Of a stretch of 37,329 nt of DNA, positions 4,109 to 26,079 are shown in pieces. Both the position numbers and the translations under genes were made by a program. The stretch's first letter is position 1. The number at the start of each line of letters is the position of its first letter. Origin of the DNA: a virus (Duplodnaviria > Heunggongvirae > Uroviricota > Caudoviricetes); IMG/VR virus record IMGVR_UViG_2850808358_000008, positions 1 through 37,329 of that record, one strand, 5' to 3'. The notes beneath the pieces are model-generated. The model did no database searches, was not told the DNA's origin, and worked only from the letters and a program-made list of their open reading frames with translations.

Positions 4109-4216
4109 GAAACCAGAACATGCACACACAAAAAAACCGCTTGCCATGCCTCAATCGGTCAGGTTACATTTCCGCCGCACCTCATAAAACGGGTGCCGGG
4201 ATTTCCACCCCGCTGA

Positions 4217-4420
4217 CAACTACAGCGCACAACCGCGCCAGCGGTTTTTTTGTGCGTACTGTATCGCCACGTCTTTTTCGCACACGAATTATGGTGGGGC
4301 GTACGGGGCCGACTTCGGTCGGGCCGGGTTCTGTAGTTGCCGGTTGTGGAAACCCTGTACGTCTCACCACCCCGAGTTTTCCACCTCTGGATGGTGAGTT
4401 TTCAAAACTTGCAACTACAG
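4217..4420. repeat. Noncoding early region with three copies of the 9-mer CAACTACAG (two direct, one inverted) and a UUCG-loop hairpin
   Basis: CAACTACAG at 4217-4225 and 4412-4420, its reverse complement at 4331-4339, each next to a CACAACC-like motif. GGCCGAC-ttcg-GTCGGGCC hairpin near 4300-4320. Weak hairpin plus T7 run at 4232-4250. No convincing ORF across 4109-4430. Confidence 0.4.
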
Positions 4421-4430
4421 AGGCCACACC

Positions 4431-4661
4431 ATGGCAAACCGCAAACAGCACCGCGCTATCGCGGAGCGTCGTCACATCCAGACTGAAATCAACCGCAGAC
4501 TTTTCCGCGCATCACGCGTCGCGCAAATCATGCACATCAATATGCTGCATGAGCGCAGCCACGCACTATCAAACATCTATTCCGCCGCTGTTTTCAGCTA
4601 TCTGGCGGATGATCTGCACGAGCTTCAACAGCTCATCCAGCAGCAAAACAAACTCCATTAA
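4431..4661 (+). CDS. Hypothetical early protein (76 aa)
   Basis: ORF with a GAGG RBS overlapping the third CAACTACAG repeat. Confidence 0.4.
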   Translation: MANRKQHRAIAERRHIQTEINRRLFRASRVAQIMHINMLHERSHALSNIYSAAVFSYLADDLHELQQLIQQQNKLH

Positions 4662-5105: not shown

Positions 5106-7726
5106 ATGACGGCAGAGTACATCAGGGACTGGCAACAACCGCGCCACGCAGTGGGGCGTGAAGGAACGGGGATCCCCGCTCCTGAATCCGCGCTTTCCTC
5201 CTGGCTGGATGCTTACCGGGCAGAGAACGAGCGCCGCCAGGAAATGGCTGATGCGGCGTTCTCCGCCACGCCGCTGGGCAACCTGATTAATAAAAGCCTG
5301 GACGCACAGGAAAAACAGGACAAAACCATCACACTGGCAGGAGACGCCAGAAAACAGGCACGCGGCGCGGTGGATGAAGCCATGGCCTCGCTGCGCCTGC
5401 TGCCGTCCTATCTGCGCGATCCGCTTATTCGCCACCTCTCCTTCCTGCGCAAAAAACAGGAAGCCGATCGCCAGAAAGGCAAAAAGAGCTGGCAGGCTGA
5501 ACGCTACGCGCGCGGAACCCTGCGCAAAATATTCGAACGTCTGGACCGCACCGACCACCGCTGGCTGACACGGGGTTATCGCGCCCTTGCCGGACGCGAA
5601 CGCCTGGACGATTTGCTTTACCTGCCGCAGCTCAACAAGCACCAGATACAGACGCTGGCCACCATGACGGCGGCGATGTTCAGCAGCACATTCGAAACAC
5701 TCTGTGATGGCCTTGGTGCCAGAGATGGCGAGCTGACCATGGAGGTGACGCTGAAGGCATATCAGATGCTGGCCCGCATGGCGTTACATCTGCACACCAT
5801 ACCGCCGCATTATGACGCACTGACAACAGACAAAGACCGGAGGAACGAACCGGACACGGAGCTGCTGCCGGGCGCAATCCTTCGCCTGACCTGTGCGGAC
5901 TGGTGGAAACGCAAACTGTGGCTGTTACGTTGCGAGTGGAGAGAAGAACAACTCCGCGCCGCCTGTCTGGTTTCCAGAAAAACATCGCCTTATCTGAGCC
6001 AGGACGCGTTAAGCGAGTTTCGCGCACAGCGCGAGAAAACACGCGATTTCCTGAAAAGTTTCATGCTGGAAAATGAAGACGGGTTCACGATTGATCTCGA
6101 GACAGTGTATTACGCGGGAGTAAGTAACCCGGTTCACCGTAAGGCAGAAATGATGGCCACCATGAAAGGGCGGAACTTATAGCCGAATCCCGTGGCGACA
6201 AAGCGGTGTTTCTGACTGTCACCTGCCCGTCAAAATACCACGCAACAACGGAGAACGGTCATCCGAACCCCAAATGGAACGGGGCTACCATGCGCGATTC
6301 CAGTGATTATCTGGTTAACACTTTTTTTAAAGCCGTTCGTAACAGACTGGACCGCAAGGGCCTGCGCTGGTATGGCATCCGCACGGTGGAGCCTCACCAT
6401 GACGGCACCGTGCACTGGCATATGATGGTCTTTGCCCATCCGGAAGAAATCGACAGCATCGTGACCATCGCCCGCGATATTGCCATTCGTGAAGACCGCC
6501 ACGAGCTGGGCGATGACATAACTCCGCGCTTTAAGGCGGAGTACGTCGACGGTTCGAAAGGTACGCCGACCAGCTATATCGCCACCTACATCGGAAAGAA
6601 CCTGGACAGCCACGCCGTGGATGGCATTGACCCGAAAACAGGCAAACCGCGCATCGACGACGAATCAGGAAAGACGATGGCAGAAAGCGTGGAACGCGCC
6701 ATCGGCTGGGCGCGCCTTCACCGGGTCCGCCAGTTCCAGTTCTTTGGCATCCCCTCCCGTCAGGTATGGCGTGAACTGCGCCGCCTTGCCAGCCAGATGG
6801 CACGCAACCCGGAAGGCCCGCAACGGCTGAAGGATGACGCAATGGATGCGGTTCTTGCTGCCGCTGATGCCGGGTGTTTTGCCACCTACATAGAGAAACA
6901 GGGCGGCGTACTTGTTCCACGTAAGGACTACCTGATTCGCACCGCCTACGACCTCGCAGATGAGCTGAACGATTACGGCGAACAGAGCGTACAGATTTAC
7001 GGGATCTGGTCGCCACTCATCGGGGAATCCTCCCGTGTGTGCACGCATCCGGACAACTGGAAGCTGGTAAGACGTAAACCGGAAGCGGAAGACAGCGCCC
7101 GCGAAAATGGTTTTGACCTTCAGGGCGGCCCTGCCGCCCCTTGGACTCGTGGCAATAACTGTCCCCGTGTACAGGAAACGAACAACAACGGGACAGAACA
7201 GCCGGAAGAACGGCCAGCACTGTGGCCGCAGCTCCCTGACGGCGTTGAAGTGAATGAATGGATGCGCTCACTGAAACGGCACGAACGCCGGGCGCTGATG
7301 CGTTCGCTGCGTGACAAACAGGCAAAAAACAGCAGTGCTGAAATGCAGAACTGGACACAGAGCCGCAAACAGCCACAGCCTTTGCCTGATAACCACGAGT
7401 TACTCGCTAAAGAATGGCGGGAGTCTGCTGAATCCCTTGGCCTGCATATCGGTGAACAGCAGATGCAGCACCTGTTACGGGGCGGCAGTCTGTACGTTGA
7501 CGGCAGCATCATTGCACCGCAGGGATTTGAAATTGTACGCAAACCGGATACCCGCCCGGACAGCCGAATCGCGCAGCTCTGGCAGCGCCTGAGCCGTAAT
7601 CACGGCGTAAGCAGCACGGAGATCCGCCATAACCCGGTCGCCAGCTATCTGGAACAGCTGGGGCATCAGACCCCGAAGCCGCTGCACGCCTGGCATCCAC
7701 ACTTCAGCAGGACCAGAACACCATGA
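5106..7726 (+). CDS. A: Rolling-circle replication initiator, P2 gpA-like, split by an apparent 1-bp deletion in a GGG run at 6168-6170
   Basis: Two ORFs (5106-6182 and 6206-7726) whose reading frame stays open across the junction (ERAELIAESRGDKAVFLTVTCPSKYH). The downstream part carries a metal-binding HWH motif and a YIATY double-tyrosine motif typical of P2 A-type nickases. Confidence 0.8.
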
Positions 7727-7926
7727 AAACCCCCGTTACCGTGCTTTCTGACATGCTGCGCGCCATCCGTGACGCAGAGCACGCACAGAGAATCAGTGAA
7801 ACCGCTGAACGCGCCCGCCGCAAAGCAGGCCTGCTGCGGGGTGGCCTGACCAGCGGAAACAAAAAACAGACAGAAACGGGATTCACAAAACCCGTGAATG
7901 AGCAAAAAACGCGCCGCGATATATGA
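7723..7926 (+). CDS. Hypothetical small protein, translationally coupled to A
   Basis: ATGA start/stop overlap with A. The 3' part overlaps the dyad repeats upstream of parM, so coding status is uncertain. Confidence 0.3.
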   Translation: MKTPVTVLSDMLRAIRDAEHAQRISETAERARRKAGLLRGGLTSGNKKQTETGFTKPVNEQKTRRDI

Positions 7927-7973
7927 AGCGCGCATAAAACAGGCAAAAACGGGATTTGAAAACCCCGTAAACG
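7874..7973. promoter_or_regulatory. Two dyad-symmetric repeat units upstream of parM; candidate parC-like centromere/operator
   Basis: aaACGGGattcacaaaaCCCGTgaatg at 7874-7900 and aaACGGGatttgaaaaCCCCGTaaacg at 7947-7973, flanking an AT-rich stretch just upstream of the parM start. Confidence 0.4.
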
Positions 7974-8002
7974 ATTAATTAATCAACATAAGGAAAAGCG
8001 AC

Positions 8003-8962
8003 ATGAAAATTTGTATCGACGACGGCTCCACCAACATCAAGCTGGCATGGACTGAGAACGGCGAACGCCGCAACGCCATCAGCCCGAACAGCTTCAAGTC
8101 GGAATGGTCTGCGCCGTTCGGTGGCTCGCAGCCTGCGAACTACATGCTTGATGGCGTGCGCTATGGTTTTGATCCGGTCAGCGATCGCTTTGTCCAGACG
8201 ACCGACACGCAATACCAGTACAGCGATGTGAATGTAATCGCCATTCACCACGCGCTGGTCAAATCAGGCATCACACCACAGGAGGTGGATGTGGTTGTCA
8301 CCCTGCCACTGAGCGAATATTTCGACACAAACGCACAGCCGGACATGGCCAACATCAACCGCAAAAAAGCGAACGTTATGCGCCCGGTGGAGTACCAGAA
8401 CGGTGAGGCATTCACTATCCGTAACGTGCGGGTTATGCCTGAATCCATTCCGGCTGGCTTTAAAGCACTGGCTGACATGAGTCCGTTTGAATCCCTGCTG
8501 ATTGTGGATTTAGGCGGAACCACGCTGGATGTGGCAAAGGTTCAGGGACAACTGGCAGGTATCAGCCAGGTGTTTTGCGATCCACACGTAGGCGTTTCTC
8601 TGATAGCCGATGCCGTACTGTCGGTGATGGCCACTAACGGTATGCGTACCAGTCACCATATCGCCAATACCATTATCGAACATCGCCGCGATGAAGCCTG
8701 GCTGCGCCAGCACATCCACAATGACGCGCATTACGCCAGCCTGATGACGGTTATTCGTGAAAAGGAAGAAACACTGAAACAACGCGTGATCCGCGCGCTG
8801 GCGGGTTTTTCGGGTTACGGGCGGGTGATGGTTGTCGGTGGCGGGGCGGAGATTGTGGCACCCGCTATCCGCGAAGCCTGCGGAGTTAATGCGACTTTCA
8901 TCGCGGACGGGGTGCCACAGTTTGCTCTGGTTAATGGGCTGTACGCAATGGACAAGGAGTAA
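8003..8962 (+). CDS. parM: Actin-like ATPase of the ParM/StbA family
   Basis: 319-aa ORF. N-terminus MKICIDDGSTNIKLAW and motifs DVNV(I/V)A(I/V)HHAL, MPESIPAG, DLGGTTLD and GGGAE match plasmid R1 ParM as recalled. Confidence 0.8.
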   Translation: MKICIDDGSTNIKLAWTENGERRNAISPNSFKSEWSAPFGGSQPANYMLDGVRYGFDPVSDRFVQTTDTQYQYSDVNVIAIHHALVKSGITPQEVDVVVTLPLSEYFDTNAQPDMANINRKKANVMRPVEYQNGEAFTIRNVRVMPESIPAGFKALADMSPFESLLIVDLGGTTLDVAKVQGQLAGISQVFCDPHVGVSLIADAVLSVMATNGMRTSHHIANTIIEHRRDEAWLRQHIHNDAHYASLMTVIREKEETLKQRVIRALAGFSGYGRVMVVGGGAEIVAPAIREACGVNATFIADGVPQFALVNGLYAMDKE

Positions 8963-8966
8963 ACCA

Positions 8967-9278
8967 ATGACGACACCAACCAGACGGATAAGTTTCTATC
9001 TGAAGCCCGCCGCCGTCAAGAACGAAGGCGAAGCATGCGCTTGGCTGGACAGCCTTACACCAGAAGCCCGCAAAAGCGGCCAACGCGTGGCTTTTCTGGC
9101 CGGGCTGGCGCTTCTGAAAATGAATCCAGCAGAGGCTTACCGACTGGCTGCATGGGCTGACGATGAGGCGTTATCGGTGACACAAACCAGGACAGAACGC
9201 CCCGTGCCACAGCCAGTACCAACCGCACAGATAACCAGTCAGATAGCAGGGAATATCCGGGCATTATTTCCTGAATGA
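8967..9278 (+). CDS. parR: ParR/StbB-like ribbon-helix-helix adaptor
   Basis: 104-aa ORF directly after parM. N-terminal RRISFYLKP and central AFLAGLAL resemble R1 ParR (RRTIAFKLNP, ALTAGLAL) as recalled. Confidence 0.55.
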   Translation: MTTPTRRISFYLKPAAVKNEGEACAWLDSLTPEARKSGQRVAFLAGLALLKMNPAEAYRLAAWADDEALSVTQTRTERPVPQPVPTAQITSQIAGNIRALFPE

Positions 9279-9338
9279 CGAATTTGACGGCTTTTAATTT
9301 TATCGGGGTGCACTGTCGCCCCGCACGAGGAAAACACG

Positions 9339-9507
9339 ATGAAAAAATACGAATACATGCTAATGAAAGAAGCACTGCGGGCTGGTCTGGCTCCCTGTCC
9401 TGTATCCGTAGAAGCTGTTGTTGGGAACACGATTTTCCGAACGCTGCGAAATCGCGTATCCGTGAAGATGGTTCACCAACCACCCAAATCTACCAGCATG
9501 ATCTATC
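9339..9507 (+). pseudogene. 5' fragment of a 175-aa hypothetical gene interrupted by the IS600-like element
   Basis: The frame beginning at ATG 9339 runs into the IS left end at 9508, and rejoins in frame after the IS at 10771 once the 3-bp duplication is removed. Confidence 0.6.
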
Positions 9508-9571
9508 TGAGGTAGCCTGAGTTTAACGGACACTCCTTCCTGAAATAGAATGGCATCAGAAGGAGCTAATA

Positions 9572-9874
9572 ATGAGCAGAAAAACCCAACGTTACTCTAA
9601 AGAGTTCAAAGCCGAAGCTGTCAGAACGGTTCTTGAAAATCAACTTTCGATCAGTGAAGGCGCTTCCCGATTATCCCTTCCTGAAGGCACTTTAGGACAA
9701 TGGGTTACCGCCGCCAGAAAAGGGCTCGGTACTCCTGGTTCCCGCACGGTGGCTGAACTGGAATCTGAAATTCTGCAACTGCGTAAGGCGTTAAATGAAG
9801 CTCGCCTTGAGCGAGATATATTAAAAAAAGCAACAGCGTATTTTGCACAGGAGTCGCTGAAAAATACGCGTTAA
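9572..9874 (+). CDS. IS3-family transposase OrfA (HTH / leucine zipper)
   Basis: 100-aa ORF beginning MSRKTQRYSKEFKAEAV. A7 slippery run near 9817-9826 for the usual -1 frameshift into orfB. Confidence 0.85.
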   Translation: MSRKTQRYSKEFKAEAVRTVLENQLSISEGASRLSLPEGTLGQWVTAARKGLGTPGSRTVAELESEILQLRKALNEARLERDILKKATAYFAQESLKNTR

Positions 9875-9909
9875 TCGAACAATGGCGACAACAATTTCCC
9901 ATTGAAGCG

Positions 9910-10727
9910 ATGTGTCAGGTATTTGGTGTATCCAGGAGCGGTTATTACAACTGGGTACAGCATGAACCCTCAGACAGAAAACAAAGTGATGAGCGGCTAA
10001 AACTGGAGATTAAGGTGGCACATATCCGCACTCGCGAAACATATGGAACCCGGCGGCTCCAGACGGAGCTGGCAGAGAATGGCATCATCGTTGGTCGTGA
10101 CCGACTGGCACGTCTTCGTAAGGAGCTAAGGCTACGCTGTAAGCAGAAACGCAAGTTCAGAGCGACTACGAACCCGAACCACAATCTGCCAGTTGCGCCA
10201 AATCTGCTGAACCAGACGTTCGCTCCTACAGCACCAAATCAGGTCTGGGTGGCGGACCTGACGTATGTTGCCACACAGGAGGGATGGTTGTACCTCGCTG
10301 GCATCAAAGATGTTTATACGTGCGAAATTGTCGGCTACGCCATGGGAGAGCGCATGACAAAAGAGCTGACAGGTAAAGCCCTGTTTATGGCGCTCAGGAG
10401 CCAGCGCCCACCTGCCGGGCTAATCCACCACTCCGATCGAGGTTCACAGTACTGCGCATACGATTACCGGGTCATACAGGAGCAGTCTGGTCTGAAAACA
10501 TCAATGTCGCGTAAAGGTAACTGTTACGACAACGCTCCGATGGAAAGCTTCTGGGGAACGCTGAAAAATGAGAGCCTGAGCCACTATCGTTTTAAGAGCC
10601 GGAATGAGGCCATCTCAGTAATACGGGAATACATTGAGATTTTCTACAATCGTCAGCGTCGTCACTCTCGTCTGGGAATATCTCCCCGGCAGCCTTCAGG
10701 GAAAAATATCATCAGATGGCTGCTTAA
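9910..10727 (+). CDS. IS3-family transposase OrfB (DDE), with an apparent 1-bp deletion in a GGG run at 10674-10676
   Basis: DDE-type transposase ORF. The plausible C-terminus (GNISPAAFREKYHQMAA, stop 10725-10727) is in the neighbouring frame; the frame as sequenced instead runs past the IS end to 10812. Confidence 0.75.
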
Positions 10728-10770
10728 AAAAAGAACAAATGGTAGTGTCCGCTATTGCCAGTACACCTCA

Positions 10771-11129
10771 ATCTGCCGCTGCCCGAGGCTATCAAACTTA
10801 TGCGTTCGCTGAAATTTGCGATTTGGATGCAGACACAAATCAACAAAGCGGTGCAAAACACCTTCGTTAAGAGACTAATACCGGAGCTTGCTGCCAGATG
10901 TGCAAAATGTACCAGACCCGCACTTCAATTTGATCTGTCATTGATTCAACAAGCTACGGAGGCAGAACTGTACCGCCTGTCACCTATCCGTGATGCTCAC
11001 ACGGAAGCATCAGAAATGTTCCGGCTCATGTTTCAATTTAATTTTGCCGTTCGACGCACACGCGTTCAGGTCAATCGCATGATGCAGGAGCAGGAAGAGT
11101 TAACACAGTACAAAGGGGGCAGCCAGTGA
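10771..11129 (+). pseudogene. 3' fragment of the IS-interrupted 175-aa hypothetical gene
   Basis: In-frame continuation of 9339-9507 after removing the IS and one copy of the ATC duplication. Confidence 0.6.
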
Positions 11130-11365
11130 GTAATTCAGCACGACTACAGCTTGGTTTTTCACCGCTATCAAAAACCATCGTATTGGCAAAAATGCGTGAC
11201 TTAGGAGACGGAACAAAACGCCGCGTAGGAAATGATCGCGGTCGCGATGTAACCAACGAGGCCGCTCAACTCGTTTGGCATCTAGTCATGGCAGAAGGCG
11301 GTGAAATTAATTGGGAGCTGGATGATGGTTCTCGTATGATTTTGAGGGCCGAGAAGAGTAAATAG
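11126..11365 (+). CDS. Hypothetical protein (79 aa)
   Basis: GTG start overlaps the upstream stop (GTGA), suggesting translational coupling. No recognisable family. Confidence 0.35.
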   Translation: MSNSARLQLGFSPLSKTIVLAKMRDLGDGTKRRVGNDRGRDVTNEAAQLVWHLVMAEGGEINWELDDGSRMILRAEKSK

Positions 11366-11379
11366 CTCAAGGGGGATTA

Positions 11380-11565
11380 ATGCTAAATGATGATGAAGAA
11401 GAGCTGCTTATGCAGGAATGGTCGCTCGGTGATTATGATAATGGTGAAAATGGGTGCCCGCATTGTGGCCGTTATCGTTTATGTATCTGCCAGAATGGAA
11501 AACACAGATGTGAAAAGTGCAATTGGTCTCCGGAACTTAATGACTACGTGCCGATCGAGTGGTAG
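11380..11565 (+). CDS. Small cysteine-rich, zinc-ribbon-like protein (61 aa)
   Basis: AAGGGGG RBS. Seven cysteines arranged CPHCG...CIC...C..C, with an acidic N-terminus. Confidence 0.45.
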   Translation: MLNDDEEELLMQEWSLGDYDNGENGCPHCGRYRLCICQNGKHRCEKCNWSPELNDYVPIEW

Positions 11566-11605
11566 AGGTAAGTCACACTAGGTGTTTTTTAGTTGATTTT
11601 ATAAA

Positions 11606-11632
11606 TGCACAATAGTGCACAAATTTGCACAA
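11606..11632. repeat. Three TGCACAA direct repeats at exactly 10-bp spacing
   Basis: TGCACAA at 11606, 11616 and 11626, followed by a T7 run, at the start of the noncoding stretch before the cos/portal region. Confidence 0.4.
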
Positions 11633-11639
11633 TTTTTTT

Positions 11640-12054
11640 GAACGACTTTTTGCCCTTCCGGCCCGCGTGGCGGCTGGATCCGTCAAGGATCCGTGCGTGC
11701 ACAAAAAAACGCGTTTTTTCTGCGCGCAGGTGACGGGGGAACAGCCCGCGTTTCAGGGGTAAATAGCATCCCCTGAACGATGTCGCAGCGACACAACAGA
11801 ATGGCTGTATTTCTCACGCTGAGCGTGAAAAAGACGTGAGGGCTTTTGATTTGATGGGTGGAAGATAAGGCCGTCAAAATCGCACTGAGGCGGCGAGAAC
11901 ATGCAGTCAGCGCAGTGGGATTGCGTAAGAGTCTGACTGTCGATGATGGCAATCAGCAGGAAAGCGTCGTGAAATTATCTGACTGATACAGGAGCTGGAG
12001 AGTCGGGGCATAAATTTTTTATGCCCCGGCGAAGCAGCAGACAAGCGAAGCGCG
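11640..12054. other. Noncoding region likely to contain the cos site / packaging signals
   Basis: About 490 bp without convincing ORFs between the accessory genes and portal Q, the position of cos in P2-like prophages. Contains GCGTGGCGG near 11665-11680 (reminiscent of P2/186 cos ends as recalled) and the palindrome CGGATCC-gtcaa-GGATCCG. Exact cos not determinable here. Confidence 0.3.
12005..12027. terminator. Perfect 10-bp inverted repeat (GGGGCATAAA ttt TTTATGCCCC) just downstream of Q
   Basis: Hairpin immediately after the Q stop on the minus strand; no strong U-tract. Confidence 0.35.
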
Positions 12055-23370: not shown

Positions 23371-25480
23371 ATGAGTACCACAACACGTAAATTTAAAACC
23401 GTTATCACCGATACGGGTGCCAAAAAATTAGCTCAGGCAGCCGCGCCAGATGGTAAGCCTGTCCGCCTGACTCATATGGCCGTGGGCGACGGTGGCGGCA
23501 CGCTGCCCACACCAGACAGTAAGCAGACCCGTCTGGTGCATGAGGTGTGGCGACACACTGTTAATCGCGTCATCCTGGACGCAACACATCAGAACCGCAT
23601 TATTGCGGAGCTGGTTATTCCTCCTGAAACGGGCGGATTCTGGATCCGGGAAATTGGTGTATTTGATGAGCACGGCGATTTAATCGCGGTGGGCAATACT
23701 GCCGAAAGTTACAAACCAGCCGTTGCCGAGGGGTCCGGACGTGCACAAACATTTCGCACCATTCTGACCGTATCCAGCACTGCCACCGTGGCGCTTACCG
23801 TGGATAACACCATGGTGATGGCCACAGTGGATTACGTGGATGACAAACTGAAAGAGCCTGAACAGTCACGACGTCACCCGGATGCCTCGCTGACCGCAAA
23901 AGGCTTTGTTCAACTCAGTAGCGCCACCAACAGCACGTCTGAAGCACTGGCCGCAACGCCGAAAGCGGTCAAGGCAGCCTATGACCTTGCTAACGGGAAA
24001 TATACCGCACAGGACGCCACTACAGCGCGGAAAGGACTTGTCCAGCTCAGTAGCGCCACCAACAGCGATTCAGAAACGCTGGCGGCAACACCAATGGCGG
24101 TAAAGGCAGCATATGACCTTGCTAACGGGAAATATACTGCGCAGGATGCCACCACAGCGCGGAAAGGCCTTGTCCAGCTCAGTAGCGCCACCAACAGCAC
24201 GTCTGAAACGCTGGCGGCAACACCAAAGTCGGTAAAGGCAGCCTATGACCTTGCTAACGGGAAATATACCGCTCAGGACGCTACGACAGCACAAAAAGGA
24301 ATTGTCCAGCTCAGTAGTGCAACCAACAGCGCATCTGAAACGCTTGCTGCGACACCGAAAGCTGTGAAAGCAGCTAATGACAATGCGAATGGTCGGGTAC
24401 CTTCTGCCCGTAAGGTGAATGGTAAGGCGCTTTCAGCGGATATAACACTGACACCGAAAGATATTGGTACGCTTAACTCAACAACAATGTCATTCAGAGG
24501 TGGTGCTGGTTGGTTCAAATTAGCAACGGTAACCATGCCACAGGCGAGTTCTGTTGTTTCAATTACGTTGATTGGTGGCGCTGGATATAACGTCGGTTCA
24601 CCTCAACAGGCAGGTATATCTGAAATTGTTTTGCGTGCAGGTAATGGTAATCCGAAGGGGATTACTGGTGCTTTATGGCAGCGCACATCGGCAGGGTTTA
24701 CAAATTTTGCCTGGGTCAATACATCTGGTGATACTTACGATATTTACGTTGCAATCGGAAATTATGCGACTGGTGTAAATATTCAATGGGATTATACCAG
24801 TAATGCCAGCGTAACGATTCATCCGTCACCAGCATATTCTGCTAATAAGCCGGAAGGGTTAACGGACGGTACAGTTTATTCACTCTATACGCCATCAGAG
24901 CAGTTTTATCCGCCTGGCGCACCAATCCCGTGGCCATCGGATACCGTTCCGTCTGGTTATGCCCTGATGCAGGGGCAGACTTTTGACAAATCTGCCTACC
25001 CGAAACTTGCAGTCGCTTATCCGTCAGGCGTGATCCCTGATATGCGTGGCTGGACGATTAAGGGCAAACCTGCCAGTGGTCGGGCCGTATTGTCTCAGGA
25101 ACAGGACGGCATTAAATCGCACACCCACAGCGCCAGCGCATCCAGTACGGATTTGGGGACGAAAACCACATCGTCGTTTGATTACGGAACTAAATCCACA
25201 AATAACACCGGAGCACATACACACAACTTTGCTTACAACAATACTTCAGCATACGCAGAAACTCCCGGTACCGGTGGTGGAATGCATGCAACTAACACAA
25301 GCAAGACAGCAAGTAATCGCGTATTAAGCGCAGGAGCTCATACTCACACAGTAGCAATAGGTGCGCATACACATACGCTCGCTATTGGTTCGCACACACA
25401 CCATTACCATTGCCGCTTATGGCAACGCGGAAAACACCGTAAAAAACATCGCATTTAACTATATTGTGAGGCTTGCATAA
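23371..25480 (+). CDS. H: Tail fibre protein, P2 gpH-like, with an apparent frame disruption in a (CA)n run near 25393-25402
   Basis: Large ORF after I with an N-terminus like P2 H, internal tandem repeats and a His/Thr-rich AHTHT stretch. The expected C-terminus ([26 protein letters not shown], stop 25478-25480 overlapping the G start) is in the +1 frame relative to the ORF as sequenced, which ends at 25458. Confidence 0.8.
23899..24380 (+). repeat. About 3.6 tandem copies of a 132-bp (44-aa) repeat inside H
   Basis: Units start at 23899, 24031, 24163 and 24295 and encode KG(F/L/I)VQLSSATNS(T/D/A)SE(A/T)LAATPK(A/S)[21 protein letters not shown] with a few substitutions. Confidence 0.85.
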
Positions 25481-26079
25481 TGGCATTCAGAATGAGTGAA
25501 CAACCACGAACCATAAAAATTTATAATCTGCTGGTCGGAACCAATGAATTTATTGGTGAAGGTGATGCATACATTCCACCTCATACAGGTCTGCCTGCAA
25601 ATAGTACTGATATTGCTCCGCCAGATATTCCAGCTGGCTTCGTGGCTGTTTTCAACAGTGATGGGGCGTCCTGGCATCTCGTTGAAGATCATCGTGGTAA
25701 AACGGTTTATGACGTGGCTTCCGGCGACGCGTTATTTATTTCTGAACTCGGTCCGTTACCGGAAAATGTTACCTGGTTGTCGCCGGGAGGGGAATATCAG
25801 AAGTGGAACGGCACAGCCTGGGTGAAGGATACGGAAGCAGAAAAACTGTTCCGGATCCGGGAGGCAGAAGAAACAAAAAACAGCCTGATGCAGGTAGCCA
25901 GTGAGCATATTGCGCCACTTCAGGATGCTGTAGATCTGGAAATCGCAACGGAGGAAGAAATCTCGTTGCTGGAAGCCTGGAAGAAGTATCGAGTGCTGCT
26001 GAACCGTGTTGATACATCAAGAGCACCGGATATTGAGTGGCCAGCTTCCCCAGTGGAATCAAGGAGTAAACAAGCATAA
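25480..26079 (+). CDS. G: Tail fibre assembly chaperone, P2 gpG-like
   Basis: 199-aa ORF whose start overlaps the expected H stop (TAATG). Confidence 0.8.

What the first reader, a model, noticed from the sequence alone, without database searches (positions are those of the whole stretch)
7723..9278. ParM/ParR actin-type partition-like locus with upstream dyad repeats in a P2-like prophage accessory hotspot
A strongly ParM-like ATPase and a ParR-like small protein follow two 27-bp dyad-symmetric repeats (7874-7973). Type II partition systems are plasmid hallmarks; an integrating P2-like phage is not expected to need one. Possibilities include plasmid-like maintenance of the excised phage, an acquired plasmid module, or a ParM-like protein repurposed for phage exclusion, since this locus (between A and cos) is where P2-like phages carry tin/old-type defence cargo.
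Basis: partly seen in the sequence, partly recalled or inferred. Interest (0 to 1): 0.7.

Follow-up and report, generated by a model that had tools for sequence, protein, structure and literature searches.

The report
ParMRC partition cassette in P2-like prophage
A complete, intact plasmid-style actin (ParM/ParR) DNA-segregation cassette with its own small binding site is a conserved core part of a very common family of P2-like prophages; databases already annotate it, but nobody has tested what it does for a phage that integrates.

Summary
ORF 8003-8962 is a full-length R1-type ParM, about 50% identical to R1 ParM with the ATPase motifs intact. ORF 8967-9278 is a ParR of Pfam PF10784. Two 42-nt repeats upstream each hold a 20-bp dyad, 73 bp apart. 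This motif occurs nowhere else in the window.

The window is a P88-like (Xuanwuvirus, P2 family) prophage. The locus is in about 25% of complete E. coli genomes, almost always chromosomal. RefSeq and PHROGs already annotate it as ParM and partition protein.

It is not hotspot cargo and not a recent plasmid pick-up:
- The closest plasmid ParMs are about 53% identical.
- ParMs at 55-62% identity from Hafnia, Plesiomonas, Serratia and Enterobacter all sit in P2-like prophages, in the same order: A, parM, parR, then portal.
- Both genes are under purifying selection and intact in 64 of 64 loci.
- The variable region starts after parR.
- The GGG-N10-CCC dyad pair and its 72-73 bp spacing are conserved across three genera, although hairpin stability is not.

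Best reading: a working mini-ParMRC acting on the circular extrachromosomal phage genome, most likely to prevent its loss. Spatial organisation of lytic replication is the main rival. The function is untested. Interest is moderate.

The parts
5106..7926 (+). Replication gene A (P2 GPA-type rolling-circle initiator), split here into three ORFs (5106-6182, 6206-7726, 7723-7926) by two 1-nt deletions. Its 3' end contains dyad site 1.
   Evidence: Pfam PF05840 on both large pieces. Single 2823-nt ORF in P88. Deletions located at about 6172 and about 7660.
7860..7901 (.). Repeat unit 1 of the parC-like site. Dyad core 7876-7895 (ACGGGATTCACAAAACCCGT), GGG-N10-CCC at 7878-7893.
7933..7974 (.). Repeat unit 2 of the parC-like site. 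Dyad core 7949-7968 (ACGGGATTTGAAAACCCCGT), GGG-N10-CCC at 7951-7966. It lies 73 bp from site 1 and 52 bp before the parM ATG.
7956..7986 (+). Putative ParR-controlled parM promoter: -35-like TTGAAA (7956-7961, inside dyad 2), 16-nt spacer, -10-like ATTAAT (7978-7983). ATTAATCAA is conserved across genera. Inferred by eye; the consensus scan did not call it.
   Evidence: Invariant ATTAAT.AA block in the E. coli/Hafnia/Plesiomonas alignment. No promoter in 7700-8003 passed the consensus scan.
8003..8962 (+). parM, an actin-like segregation ATPase of 319 aa. Phosphate-1 (IDDGSTNIK), MPES, phosphate-2 (DLGGTT) and GGGAE motifs are intact.
8967..9278 (+). parR, an adaptor and centromere-binding protein of 103 aa. 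It has an N-terminal ribbon-helix-helix region (TRRISFYLKP...), a hypervariable linker, and a conserved C-terminal tail NIRALFPE.
9279..12054 (.). The true variable (cargo) region between parR and the portal gene. In this window it holds an IS3-family insertion sequence (orfA 9572-9874, orfB 9910-10812) and small ORFs (DUF7446 at 11126-11365, Zn-ribbon at 11380-11565).
   Evidence: Not homologous to P88 over 9277-11603. Interval length varies from 990 to 2870 bp among 50 related loci. Pfam results.

Best explanation
This is a complete, functional type II (ParMRC) DNA-segregation cassette. It is a vertically inherited core module of one lineage of P2-family phages.

Proposed mechanism:
1. ParR dimers bind through their ribbon-helix-helix N-termini to the four GGGATT/AATCCC half-sites. 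These are arranged as two 18-20-bp dyads seven helical turns apart, forming a small parC.
2. Dyad 2 overlaps the -35 of a weak parM promoter, so ParR also autoregulates the operon.
3. The conserved C-terminal tail of ParR captures the ends of ATP-ParM filaments.
4. Filament growth between two ParR-parC complexes pushes sister copies of the circular phage genome apart.

The substrate can only be the extrachromosomal circle, the form present after infection or excision. Gene A, the neighbouring rolling-circle initiator, multiplies that circle into monomeric circles.

The most likely biological pay-off is that the phage is not lost from dividing cells while it is off the chromosome. That covers the establishment of lysogeny, spontaneous or abortive excision, and carrier states. 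The SXT/R391 ICEs provide the parallel: there, rolling-circle replication, srpMRC and a toxin-antitoxin system together prevent loss. These phages likewise carry a hok-type toxin.

Shown here: protein identities, motif integrity, site architecture, conservation, selection and synteny.
Inferred: ParR binding to the dyads, the promoter, filament-driven movement, and the biological role.
For: Protein identities:
- ParM carries both Pfam ParM domains and is about 50% identical to R1 ParM, with the nucleotide-binding motifs conserved.
- ParR matches PF10784. A 13-sequence ParR profile matches the solved pB171 ParR, PDB 2jd3, at E 4.5e-15.

Conservation and selection:
- Among 21 ParR variants the invariant parts are the N-terminal DNA-binding region and the C-terminal tail N-I-x-x-x-F-P. 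The linker is free to vary, as expected for an adaptor.
- The tail motif is shared with plasmid ParRs, including the R1 type.
- dN/dS is 0.063 for parM and 0.21 for parR. ORFs are intact in 64 of 64 loci.

The cis sites:
- The dyad pair is unique in the window.
- GGG-N10-CCC pairs are 73, 73 and 72 bp apart and lie 52-59 bp before the ATG in E. coli, Hafnia and Plesiomonas phages. Flanking sequence is otherwise unconserved.
- RNA-hairpin stability is not conserved: -10 versus about -4.5 kcal/mol.
- The half-site core AA(A/T)CCC matches the R1-type iteron core ..AACCC.
- Site type tracks the ParR beta-strand. RR goes with AACCC and RK with ATTTTTCT, in phages and plasmids alike.

Context:
- The order A, parM, parR, portal holds in all five non-Escherichia clade members examined.
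- The phage ParMs form a separate clade.
- No terminator on the + strand separates A from parM.

Precedents:
- A functional centromere with only four repeats in two pairs exists in srpC.
- srpMRC reduces loss of an integrating element.
- A hok/gef homologue is present in this and related phages.
- One 34.5-kb circular 'plasmid' record is an entire P88-like phage genome.
Against: - No experiment exists for this locus. The papers found list the gene only as an annotation, and no functional study turned up.
- The element is overwhelmingly chromosomal: 1526 of 1528 places in complete E. coli genomes. Any episomal phase must therefore be short.
- In P2-type phages excision is normally coupled to lytic commitment, when cell division and inheritance matter little. 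This favours the replication-positioning rival.
- Only four half-sites are present, against ten iterons in R1.
- The promoter is weak, and the consensus scan did not detect it.
- Within the closely related P88-like population the dyads are not less variable overall than their flanks. Variation is concentrated in the 4-bp spacer but is not confined to it.
- The window's own copy has a substitution in the right half-site of both dyads, and its gene A is frameshifted. This particular copy may be inactive as a phage.
- The AlphaFold monomer model of ParR was of low confidence.
Confidence: 0.55

Rival explanations
1. Same ParMRC machinery, but its role is in the lytic cycle. It would move and spread the replicating monomeric phage circles within the cell so that A-dependent replication and packaging are efficient. 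The model is the actin-like AlpC with its adaptor AlpA in the Corynebacterium prophage CGP3. Inheritance by daughter cells would be irrelevant.
For: - parMR lies directly downstream of gene A on the same strand, with a 77-bp gap and no + strand terminator. It is therefore probably read through from the early lytic operon.
- The A-to-parMR order is conserved in every lineage examined, which suggests coupling to replication.
- Dyad 1 sits inside the end of A.
- In CGP3, AlpAC is induced early and is needed for efficient phage DNA replication.
Against: - No expression data exist for this locus.
- R1-type ParM filaments push pairs of centromeres to opposite poles. That suits segregation more than concentration at a replication site.
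- Hafnia and Enterobacter phages have extra ORFs inserted between A and parM, so strict coupling is not required.
- Co-carriage of a hok-type addiction toxin fits an anti-loss strategy better.
Confidence: 0.3
2. The cassette is repurposed cargo that benefits the lysogen. Either it is anti-phage defence or exclusion, or phage ParR binds R1/IncFII-type parC iterons and destabilises incoming plasmids (partition incompatibility).
For: - The locus lies next to the region where P2-like phages carry variable cargo. In relatives that region holds HicAB and a KAP NTPase.
- The phage half-site core AA(A/T)CCC resembles the R1-type iteron core, and the ParR beta-strand keeps the RR pair.
Against: - No PADLOC model matches either protein.
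- parMR is conserved rather than variable.
- The complete ParM + ParR + cis-site set is under purifying selection with the motor motifs intact. An exclusion function would not need all of this.
- ParR is only 24-25% identical to the plasmid ParRs.
Confidence: 0.07
3. The dyad repeats are not ParR sites. They are RNA hairpins or terminators, for example stopping antisense read-through from the portal/terminase operon on the minus strand. Alternatively they are elements of the A gene or the replication origin. The centromere would then lie elsewhere or be absent.
For: - The scan flags dyad 2 as terminator-like on the minus strand.
- In P88-type sequences each dyad can form an 8-bp hairpin of about -10 kcal/mol, followed on the minus strand by a T-rich tract.
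- The pattern of conserved arms with a variable centre would also fit a hairpin.
Against: - In Hafnia and Plesiomonas only GGG/CCC can pair, giving 3-4 bp stems, 10-nt loops and about -4.5 kcal/mol. Yet GGG-N10-CCC, the 72-73 bp spacing and the distance to parM are all kept.
- Site type co-varies with the ParR beta-strand and matches the iteron cores of plasmids with similar ParRs.
- The position upstream of parM, overlapping a promoter-like element, is the canonical parC position.
Confidence: 0.08

Closest known systems
ParMRC (parA/stb locus) of plasmids R1/NR1, type II partition
   Same: - ParM is homologous end to end, about 50% identical, with the ATPase motifs conserved.
- ParR belongs to the same Pfam family (PF10784) and has a similar C-terminal tail.
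- The gene order is the same: cis site, parM, parR.
- The cis site overlaps a promoter-like element.
- The half-site core resembles the R1 iteron core AACCC.
   Different: - The host replicon is an integrating P2-family phage, not a low-copy plasmid: 1526 of 1528 E. coli places are chromosomal.
- The cis site has four half-sites arranged as two dyads 73 bp apart, rather than 2 x 5 direct 11-bp iterons.
- The first dyad lies inside the coding sequence of the replication gene.
- ParR is shorter (103 aa), with a deletion after the helix-helix region.
srpMRC of SXT/R391 integrative conjugative elements (Carraro et al. 2015, PMC4489591)
   Same: - Both are actin-type partition loci on elements that live integrated and have a transient, rolling-circle-replicating circular form.
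- Both centromeres have just four repeats in two pairs.
- Both act together with a toxin-antitoxin-type stabiliser.
   Different: - SrpM and SrpR are only distantly related to R1 ParMR, whereas the phage proteins are close R1-type homologues.
- The element is a virus, not a conjugative element.
- srpMRC function has been shown experimentally. The phage locus has not been tested.
AlpC/AlpA/alpS of Corynebacterium glutamicum prophage CGP3 (Donovan et al. 2015, PMC4446434)
   Same: An integrated prophage encodes an actin-like filament protein and a DNA-binding adaptor. The adaptor binds sites in the promoter region upstream of its own operon and so links circular phage DNA to the filaments.
   Different: - AlpC is a divergent actin-like protein and AlpA is not a PF10784 ParR.
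- The host is Gram-positive and the phage type is unrelated.
- Its demonstrated role is efficient replication after induction, not inheritance.
Partition loci of phage-plasmids (e.g. the StbA-type ParM of P1-like phage D6)
   Same: A tailed temperate phage genome carrying an R1-type ParM, 47.5% identical.
   Different: D6-type phages are maintained as plasmids, so a partition system is expected there. P88-like phages have an integrase and are found integrated.

Membership tests
Type II (ParMRC) partition system | Actin-fold ParM ATPase homologous to R1 ParM | tested here: met
   PF06406 at 2e-82 plus PF21523 at 5e-68. PDB 1mwk at E 8e-94 over residues 2-316.
Type II (ParMRC) partition system | Nucleotide-binding and hydrolysis motifs intact (phosphate 1 DDGSTNIK, MPES, phosphate 2 DLGGTT, GGGAE) | tested here: met
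   All are identical or conservative in the residue-by-residue alignment with R1 ParM. That these motifs are the functional ones comes from my own knowledge of R1 ParM.
Type II (ParMRC) partition system | Small ParR adaptor of the ribbon-helix-helix ParR/StbB family encoded directly downstream of parM | tested here: met
   PF10784 at 1.6e-24. A ParR profile hits the solved pB171 ParR (2jd3) at E 4.5e-15. parR starts 5 nt after the parM stop. The fold itself could not be confirmed: the AF2 monomer had pLDDT 57 and gave no Foldseek match.
Type II (ParMRC) partition system | ParR C-terminal peptide that binds ParM | tested here: inconclusive
   A C-terminal motif N-x-x-x-(L/M)-(F/I) is invariant in 21 phage ParRs and shared with plasmid ParRs, including the R1 type KKNAMKLIN. 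That this tail is the ParM-binding element in R1 is recalled from the literature. Binding was not testable here.
Type II (ParMRC) partition system | parC: repeated ParR-binding sites upstream of parM, overlapping its promoter | tested here: inconclusive
   Two dyads (four half-sites) lie in the canonical position. They are unique in the window and conserved in architecture across three genera. The number and arrangement differ from the 10 direct iterons of R1. ParR binding has not been shown, and the consensus scan did not call the promoter.
Type II (ParMRC) partition system | ATP-dependent filament formation and stabilisation of an unstable replicon | not testable with these tools
   Needs biochemistry and plasmid-stability assays.
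Type II (ParMRC) partition system | Carried by a low-copy autonomous replicon (typical, not strictly defining) | tested here: not met
   1526 chromosomal against 2 plasmid places in complete E. coli genomes. An integrase sits at 1-1020. Integrating carriers are already known, as in the SXT/R391 ICEs.
Anti-phage defence cargo of the P2 hotspot (tin/old type) | Match to a known defence protein family | tested here: not met
   No PADLOC hit for either protein.
Anti-phage defence cargo of the P2 hotspot (tin/old type) | Presence/absence variability among otherwise related phages | tested here: not met
   parMR is constant: 64 of 64 loci intact, and found in 1278 genomes against 1355 carrying the P88-type A gene. 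The interval after parR varies from 990 to 2870 bp.
Phage-plasmid | Maintained as an autonomous plasmid, with a plasmid replicon and usually no integrase | tested here: not met
   An integrase and Cox are present and the element is found integrated. Only one 34.5-kb circular 'plasmid' record corresponds to the whole phage. The same phage, 100% identical over 2.4 kb, is chromosomal in another strain.

The most novel reading that the evidence does not exclude
P88-like (Xuanwuvirus-type) P2-family phages are facultative episomes. Besides integrating, they could persist for many generations as a low-copy, actively partitioned circular replicon. Gene A would supply rolling-circle replication, ParMRC would supply segregation, and hok would kill cells that lose the element. 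This would be a hidden carrier or plasmid-like state in a prophage family present in about a quarter of E. coli genomes. It would blur the line between integrative phages and phage-plasmids, as srpMRC did for ICEs.
Probability: 0.15. Interest if true: 0.7.

Novelty: new member of a known kind. Interest (0 to 1): 0.45.

Why it matters
Partition systems are treated as a hallmark of plasmids and phage-plasmids. Here a canonical R1-type ParMRC is a selected, core component of an integrating phage lineage. That lineage is present in about 25% of complete E. coli genomes and has relatives in Hafnia, Plesiomonas, Serratia, Enterobacter, Citrobacter and Salmonella.

Working out what it does would show how temperate phages manage their off-chromosome phase. 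Candidate roles are preventing loss of excised or not-yet-integrated genomes, and organising lytic replication. It would extend the ICE and CGP3 precedents to a major enterobacterial phage family.

There is also a practical consequence. Tools that classify contigs as plasmid or phage-plasmid from ParM/ParR hits will mislabel these prophages.

The locus is small (about 1.4 kb), genetically tractable and already available in culturable phages (P88, phiSM), so the question is directly testable.

Tried and rejected
- Structure of ParR. The AlphaFold2 monomer built from a 21-sequence alignment had mean pLDDT 56.8. Foldseek against the PDB gave no match below E 1. I discarded the model and used a profile-sequence search instead.
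- Single-sequence ParR against the PDB: no hit.
- Consensus promoter scan of 7500-9600: nothing upstream of parM. The proposed promoter is by eye and by conservation only.
- Search for the P2 ori/nick sequence, recalled from memory: no match. The phage origin remains unlocated.
- Conservation of the dyads within the P88-like population. Column variability was no lower than in the flanks. This became informative only when the variants were listed and when other genera were compared.
- ParR specificity classes within Escherichia. ParR clusters fall to 55% identity, which suggested incompatibility types. The divergence turned out to be confined to the linker, so I rejected the idea.
- Expression evidence from EHEC CP-933T transcriptome and proteome papers: nothing on parM or parR in the text or the held supplements.
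- Whether the strain carrying the 34.5-kb circular record also has an integrated copy. Its chromosome is not in the searchable collection.
- Genome-contig scan with a single protein: only near-identical relatives. Divergent relatives came from the protein search plus contig look-ups.
- Literature searches for a functional study of ParM in P2-like phages: none found.


Full report
**What is there**

ORF 8003-8962 (+) encodes a 319-aa protein. It matches both Pfam ParM domains over their full length: StbA_N at 2e-82 and the ParM C-terminal domain at 5e-68. It aligns end to end with plasmid R1 ParM (PDB 1mwk, E 8e-94, about 50% identity). IDDGSTNIK, MPES, DLGGTT and GGGAE are all conserved in that alignment.

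Five nucleotides after its stop codon, ORF 8967-9278 (+) encodes a 103-aa protein. It matches PF10784 (Plasmid_stab_B, the R1/NR1 ParR/StbB family) at 1.6e-24. A profile of 13 ParRs, including this one, hits the solved pB171 ParR (2jd3, 'StbB protein') at E 4.5e-15 over the whole length.

Upstream lie two 42-nt direct repeats, 7860-7901 and 7933-7974, 79% identical. Each contains a 20-bp dyad, at 7876-7895 and 7949-7968. The dyad pattern occurs only at these two places in the 37-kb window, against 0.09 matches expected by chance.

**Two corrections**

The window has two single-base deletions, at about 6172 and about 7660, that split A into three ORFs. Dyad 1 therefore lies inside A coding sequence.

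Second, 52 distinct P88-like sequences show that the consensus site is a perfect 7-bp inverted repeat, CGGGATT-N4-AATCCCG. Most variation falls in the 4-bp spacer. The window copy has one substitution in the right half-site of each dyad.

**Context and how common it is**

The window is a P88-like prophage (genus Xuanwuvirus, Peduoviridae, the P2 family). The integrase is at 1-1020, followed by gene A and parMR. The portal and terminase genes lie on the opposite strand, followed by head, tail and ogr-like genes.

The locus is 94-97% identical to phages P88, phiSM of Citrobacter rodentium, P884B11 and others. In several of these records it is annotated 'plasmid segregation protein ParM' and 'partition protein'. 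PHROGs has families for both proteins.

In 5426 complete E. coli genomes the locus is found in 1362, at 1526 chromosomal places and 2 plasmid places. The P88-type A gene is found at 80% coverage or more in 1355 genomes, and parMR in 1278. parMR is therefore nearly co-extensive with this phage type.

[quoted passage not shown] I found no functional study.

**Not a recent plasmid pick-up and not hotspot cargo**

- The best plasmid ParMs are 53% identical or less. Nothing lies between 60% and 95% apart from six records above 95% identity; by DNA search these are mostly large (0.2-1.4 Mb) records labelled plasmid.
- Among 5.8 billion clustered proteins, the homologues at 55-62% identity come from Hafnia, Plesiomonas, Serratia (two) and Enterobacter.
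- In all five the gene lies in a P2-like prophage in the same order: Phage_GPA gene A, parM, PF10784 parR, a few variable genes, then portal and terminase on the opposite strand.
- A neighbour-joining tree of 105 full-length ParMs places exactly these, together with the Escherichia ones, in one 16-member clade.
- Four sampled homologues just outside that clade (48-52% identity) lie in an ICE, an integrated plasmid, a plasmid-like contig and a non-phage contig.
- Within the P88-like population dN/dS is 0.063 for parM and 0.21 for parR. ParM is 319 aa in all 64 loci examined; ParR is 103 aa in 63 and 102 aa in one.
- By contrast, the interval between parR and the portal gene ranges from 990 to 2870 bp, in 27 size classes among 50 loci.
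- That interval carries different cargo in different lineages: an IS3-family element here, HicAB in Serratia, a KAP NTPase in Enterobacter.
- Neither ParM nor ParR matches a PADLOC defence model.

parMR is therefore the conserved flank of the cargo hotspot, not cargo itself.

**The cis site**

E. coli, Hafnia and Plesiomonas phages each have two GGG-N10-CCC dyads. They are 73, 73 and 72 bp apart, about seven helical turns. The proximal dyad lies 52-59 bp before the parM ATG.

An alignment of the upstream regions shows that almost the only invariant blocks are GGGA..A.CCC (twice) and ATTAAT.AA, about 20 nt before the start codon.

RNA-hairpin stability is not conserved. It is about -10 kcal/mol in P88-type sequences but about -4.5 in Hafnia and Plesiomonas, where only GGG and CCC can pair. 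This argues for protein-binding sites and against terminators.

The Serratia and Enterobacter phages use a different design: 14-20-nt inverted arms containing ATAGAAAAAT, 26-28 nt apart. Their ParRs begin NRKISFYLKP rather than TRR(I/V)SFYL.

The same pairing holds in plasmids:
- R1-type pHK01, with KRRTIAFKL, has 2 x 5 direct 11-bp iterons ending in AACCC.
- An IncL/M plasmid, with NRKCSFYIYP, has direct ATTTTTCT iterons.

Site type therefore tracks the predicted DNA-reading strand of ParR. This is indirect evidence that the dyads are ParR sites.

A -35-like TTGAAA lies inside dyad 2, 16 nt before the conserved ATTAAT. The consensus scan did not call this promoter, so it remains an inference.

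**ParR as an adaptor**

Across 21 Escherichia-type ParRs, down to 43% overall identity, the invariant residues are the N-terminal R6-P14 strand, the following helices, and the C-terminal N96, I97, F101 and P102. Residues 65-95 are hypervariable. The C-terminal motif is shared with ParRs from the other phage genera and from plasmids. This pattern of DNA-binding head, free linker and conserved tail is what an adaptor linking DNA to ParM filaments requires. That the tail is the ParM-binding element in R1 comes from my memory of the R1 structural work and was not tested here.

**Mechanism and role**

The molecular reading is a small but complete ParMRC. ParR binds four half-sites, autoregulates the operon and captures ParM filament ends, and the filaments push sister DNA molecules apart. 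I hold this with high confidence, about 0.85.

A centromere with only four repeats in two pairs is known to work in srpC of the SXT/R391 ICEs.

Because the prophage is integrated, the only sensible substrate is the extrachromosomal circle made by infection or excision. Gene A, a rolling-circle initiator, then multiplies it.

Two roles are plausible.
- **Anti-loss** (my preferred reading). The cassette prevents loss from dividing cells while the phage is off the chromosome. Carraro et al. showed this for R391, where relaxase-driven replication, srpMRC and a toxin-antitoxin act together. These phages also carry a hok/gef toxin gene: 34781-34921 in the window, and 'MokW-like' in P88 and relatives. 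One 34.5-kb circular 'plasmid' record is a whole P88-like phage.
- **Lytic organisation**. The cassette positions replicating genomes during lytic growth, as AlpC and AlpA do in prophage CGP3. In favour of this, parMR follows A on the same strand with no terminator. In P2-type phages, excision usually means lytic commitment.

I cannot separate these two roles computationally. Defence, plasmid incompatibility and 'the dyads are terminators' are minor rivals.

**State of this particular copy**

Relative to P88 the window has frameshifts in A (two). It has split ORFs where P88 has a single tape-measure gene and a single tail-sheath gene. The DNA methyltransferase near the right end is also split, and an IS sits in the hotspot. 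This copy is either a decaying prophage or comes from an error-prone assembly. parM and parR themselves carry no indel.

**Verdict**

The 'plasmid hallmark in an integrating phage' oddity is real. It is, however, already annotated, very common, and has mechanistic precedents in ICEs and in one actinobacterial prophage.

This analysis adds four things:
- The module is an old, core, phage-specific ParMRC lineage rather than cargo.
- Its mini-centromere now has a defined architecture.
- Site type matches ParR type in both phages and plasmids.
- Clear experiments can now be specified.

Interest is moderate, and the novelty class is a new member of a known kind.

Noticed in passing
window 5106-7926; also 27950-30792, 31839-33022, 35313-36104: Replication gene A is split by two 1-nt deletions. 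The tape-measure, tail-sheath and DNA-methyltransferase genes also appear as two overlapping or adjacent ORFs each, where P88 or a related record has one. This is either a degraded prophage or an error-prone assembly. parM and parR are untouched.
   Followed up: partly
window 34781-34921 (+), with Com 35162-35368 and the methyltransferase 35313-36104: A Hok/Gef-family toxin ORF (PF01848, 2.5e-8) lies near the att end. The same region is annotated 'MokW-like host killing' in P88 and relatives. The phage thus carries homologues of both stability loci of plasmid R1 (parMRC and hok/sok). No sok-like RNA was looked for.
   Followed up: partly
window 4177-4251 and 4287-4374 (+): Rfam hits to isrK (63.6 bits) and C4 antisense RNA (80.5 bits). 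They lie just upstream of a 76-codon ORF (4431-4661), collinear with the P88 gene annotated 'derepression protein' by the P88 alignment. This suggests P1/P7-style antisense control of an antirepressor in a P2-like phage.
   Followed up: no
window 9572-10812: An IS3-family insertion sequence (orfA HTH_Tnp_1, orfB rve) sits in the cargo region right after parR, replacing the P88 gp19-gp20 region. The C-terminal end of orfB reads oddly, so it may be frameshifted or truncated.
   Followed up: partly
L005 (NZ_CP148288.1, 34,461 bp, circular): A record labelled as an E. coli plasmid is a complete P88-like phage genome, with integrase, cox, A, parMR, structural genes and hok. The same phage (100% identical over 2.4 kb) is chromosomal in another strain of the same project. 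This may be an excised or induced phage assembled separately, or a real episome.
   Followed up: partly
L089:5887-5940, L090:5883-5950, L095:1057-1181: The Serratia and Enterobacter phage parM upstream regions use inverted arms containing ATAGAAAAAT. This is the reverse complement of the ATTTTTCT direct iterons of an IncL/M plasmid whose ParR shares the NRK beta-strand start. The E. coli-type phage sites share the AACCC core of R1 iterons. ParR specificity types seem to be shared between phages and plasmids even though the ParMs form separate clades.
   Followed up: partly
alignment A1 (ParR residues 65-95): The ParR linker is hypervariable within Escherichia, with overall identity falling to 43-55%, whereas ParM stays at 91% or above. 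E. coli-type ParR also lacks a roughly 13-residue segment present in the ParRs of other genera and of plasmids.
   Followed up: partly
L003 (NZ_JBQPOM010000071.1): A 226-kb contig labelled Vagococcus sp., a Gram-positive genus, carries a ParM 97% identical to this E. coli-type phage protein. It is probably contamination or a mislabelled assembly.
   Followed up: no
window 25823-26021 (+): A full-length Rfam IS009 hit (218 bits) lies inside an ORF of the tail-fibre region (25480-26079).
   Followed up: no
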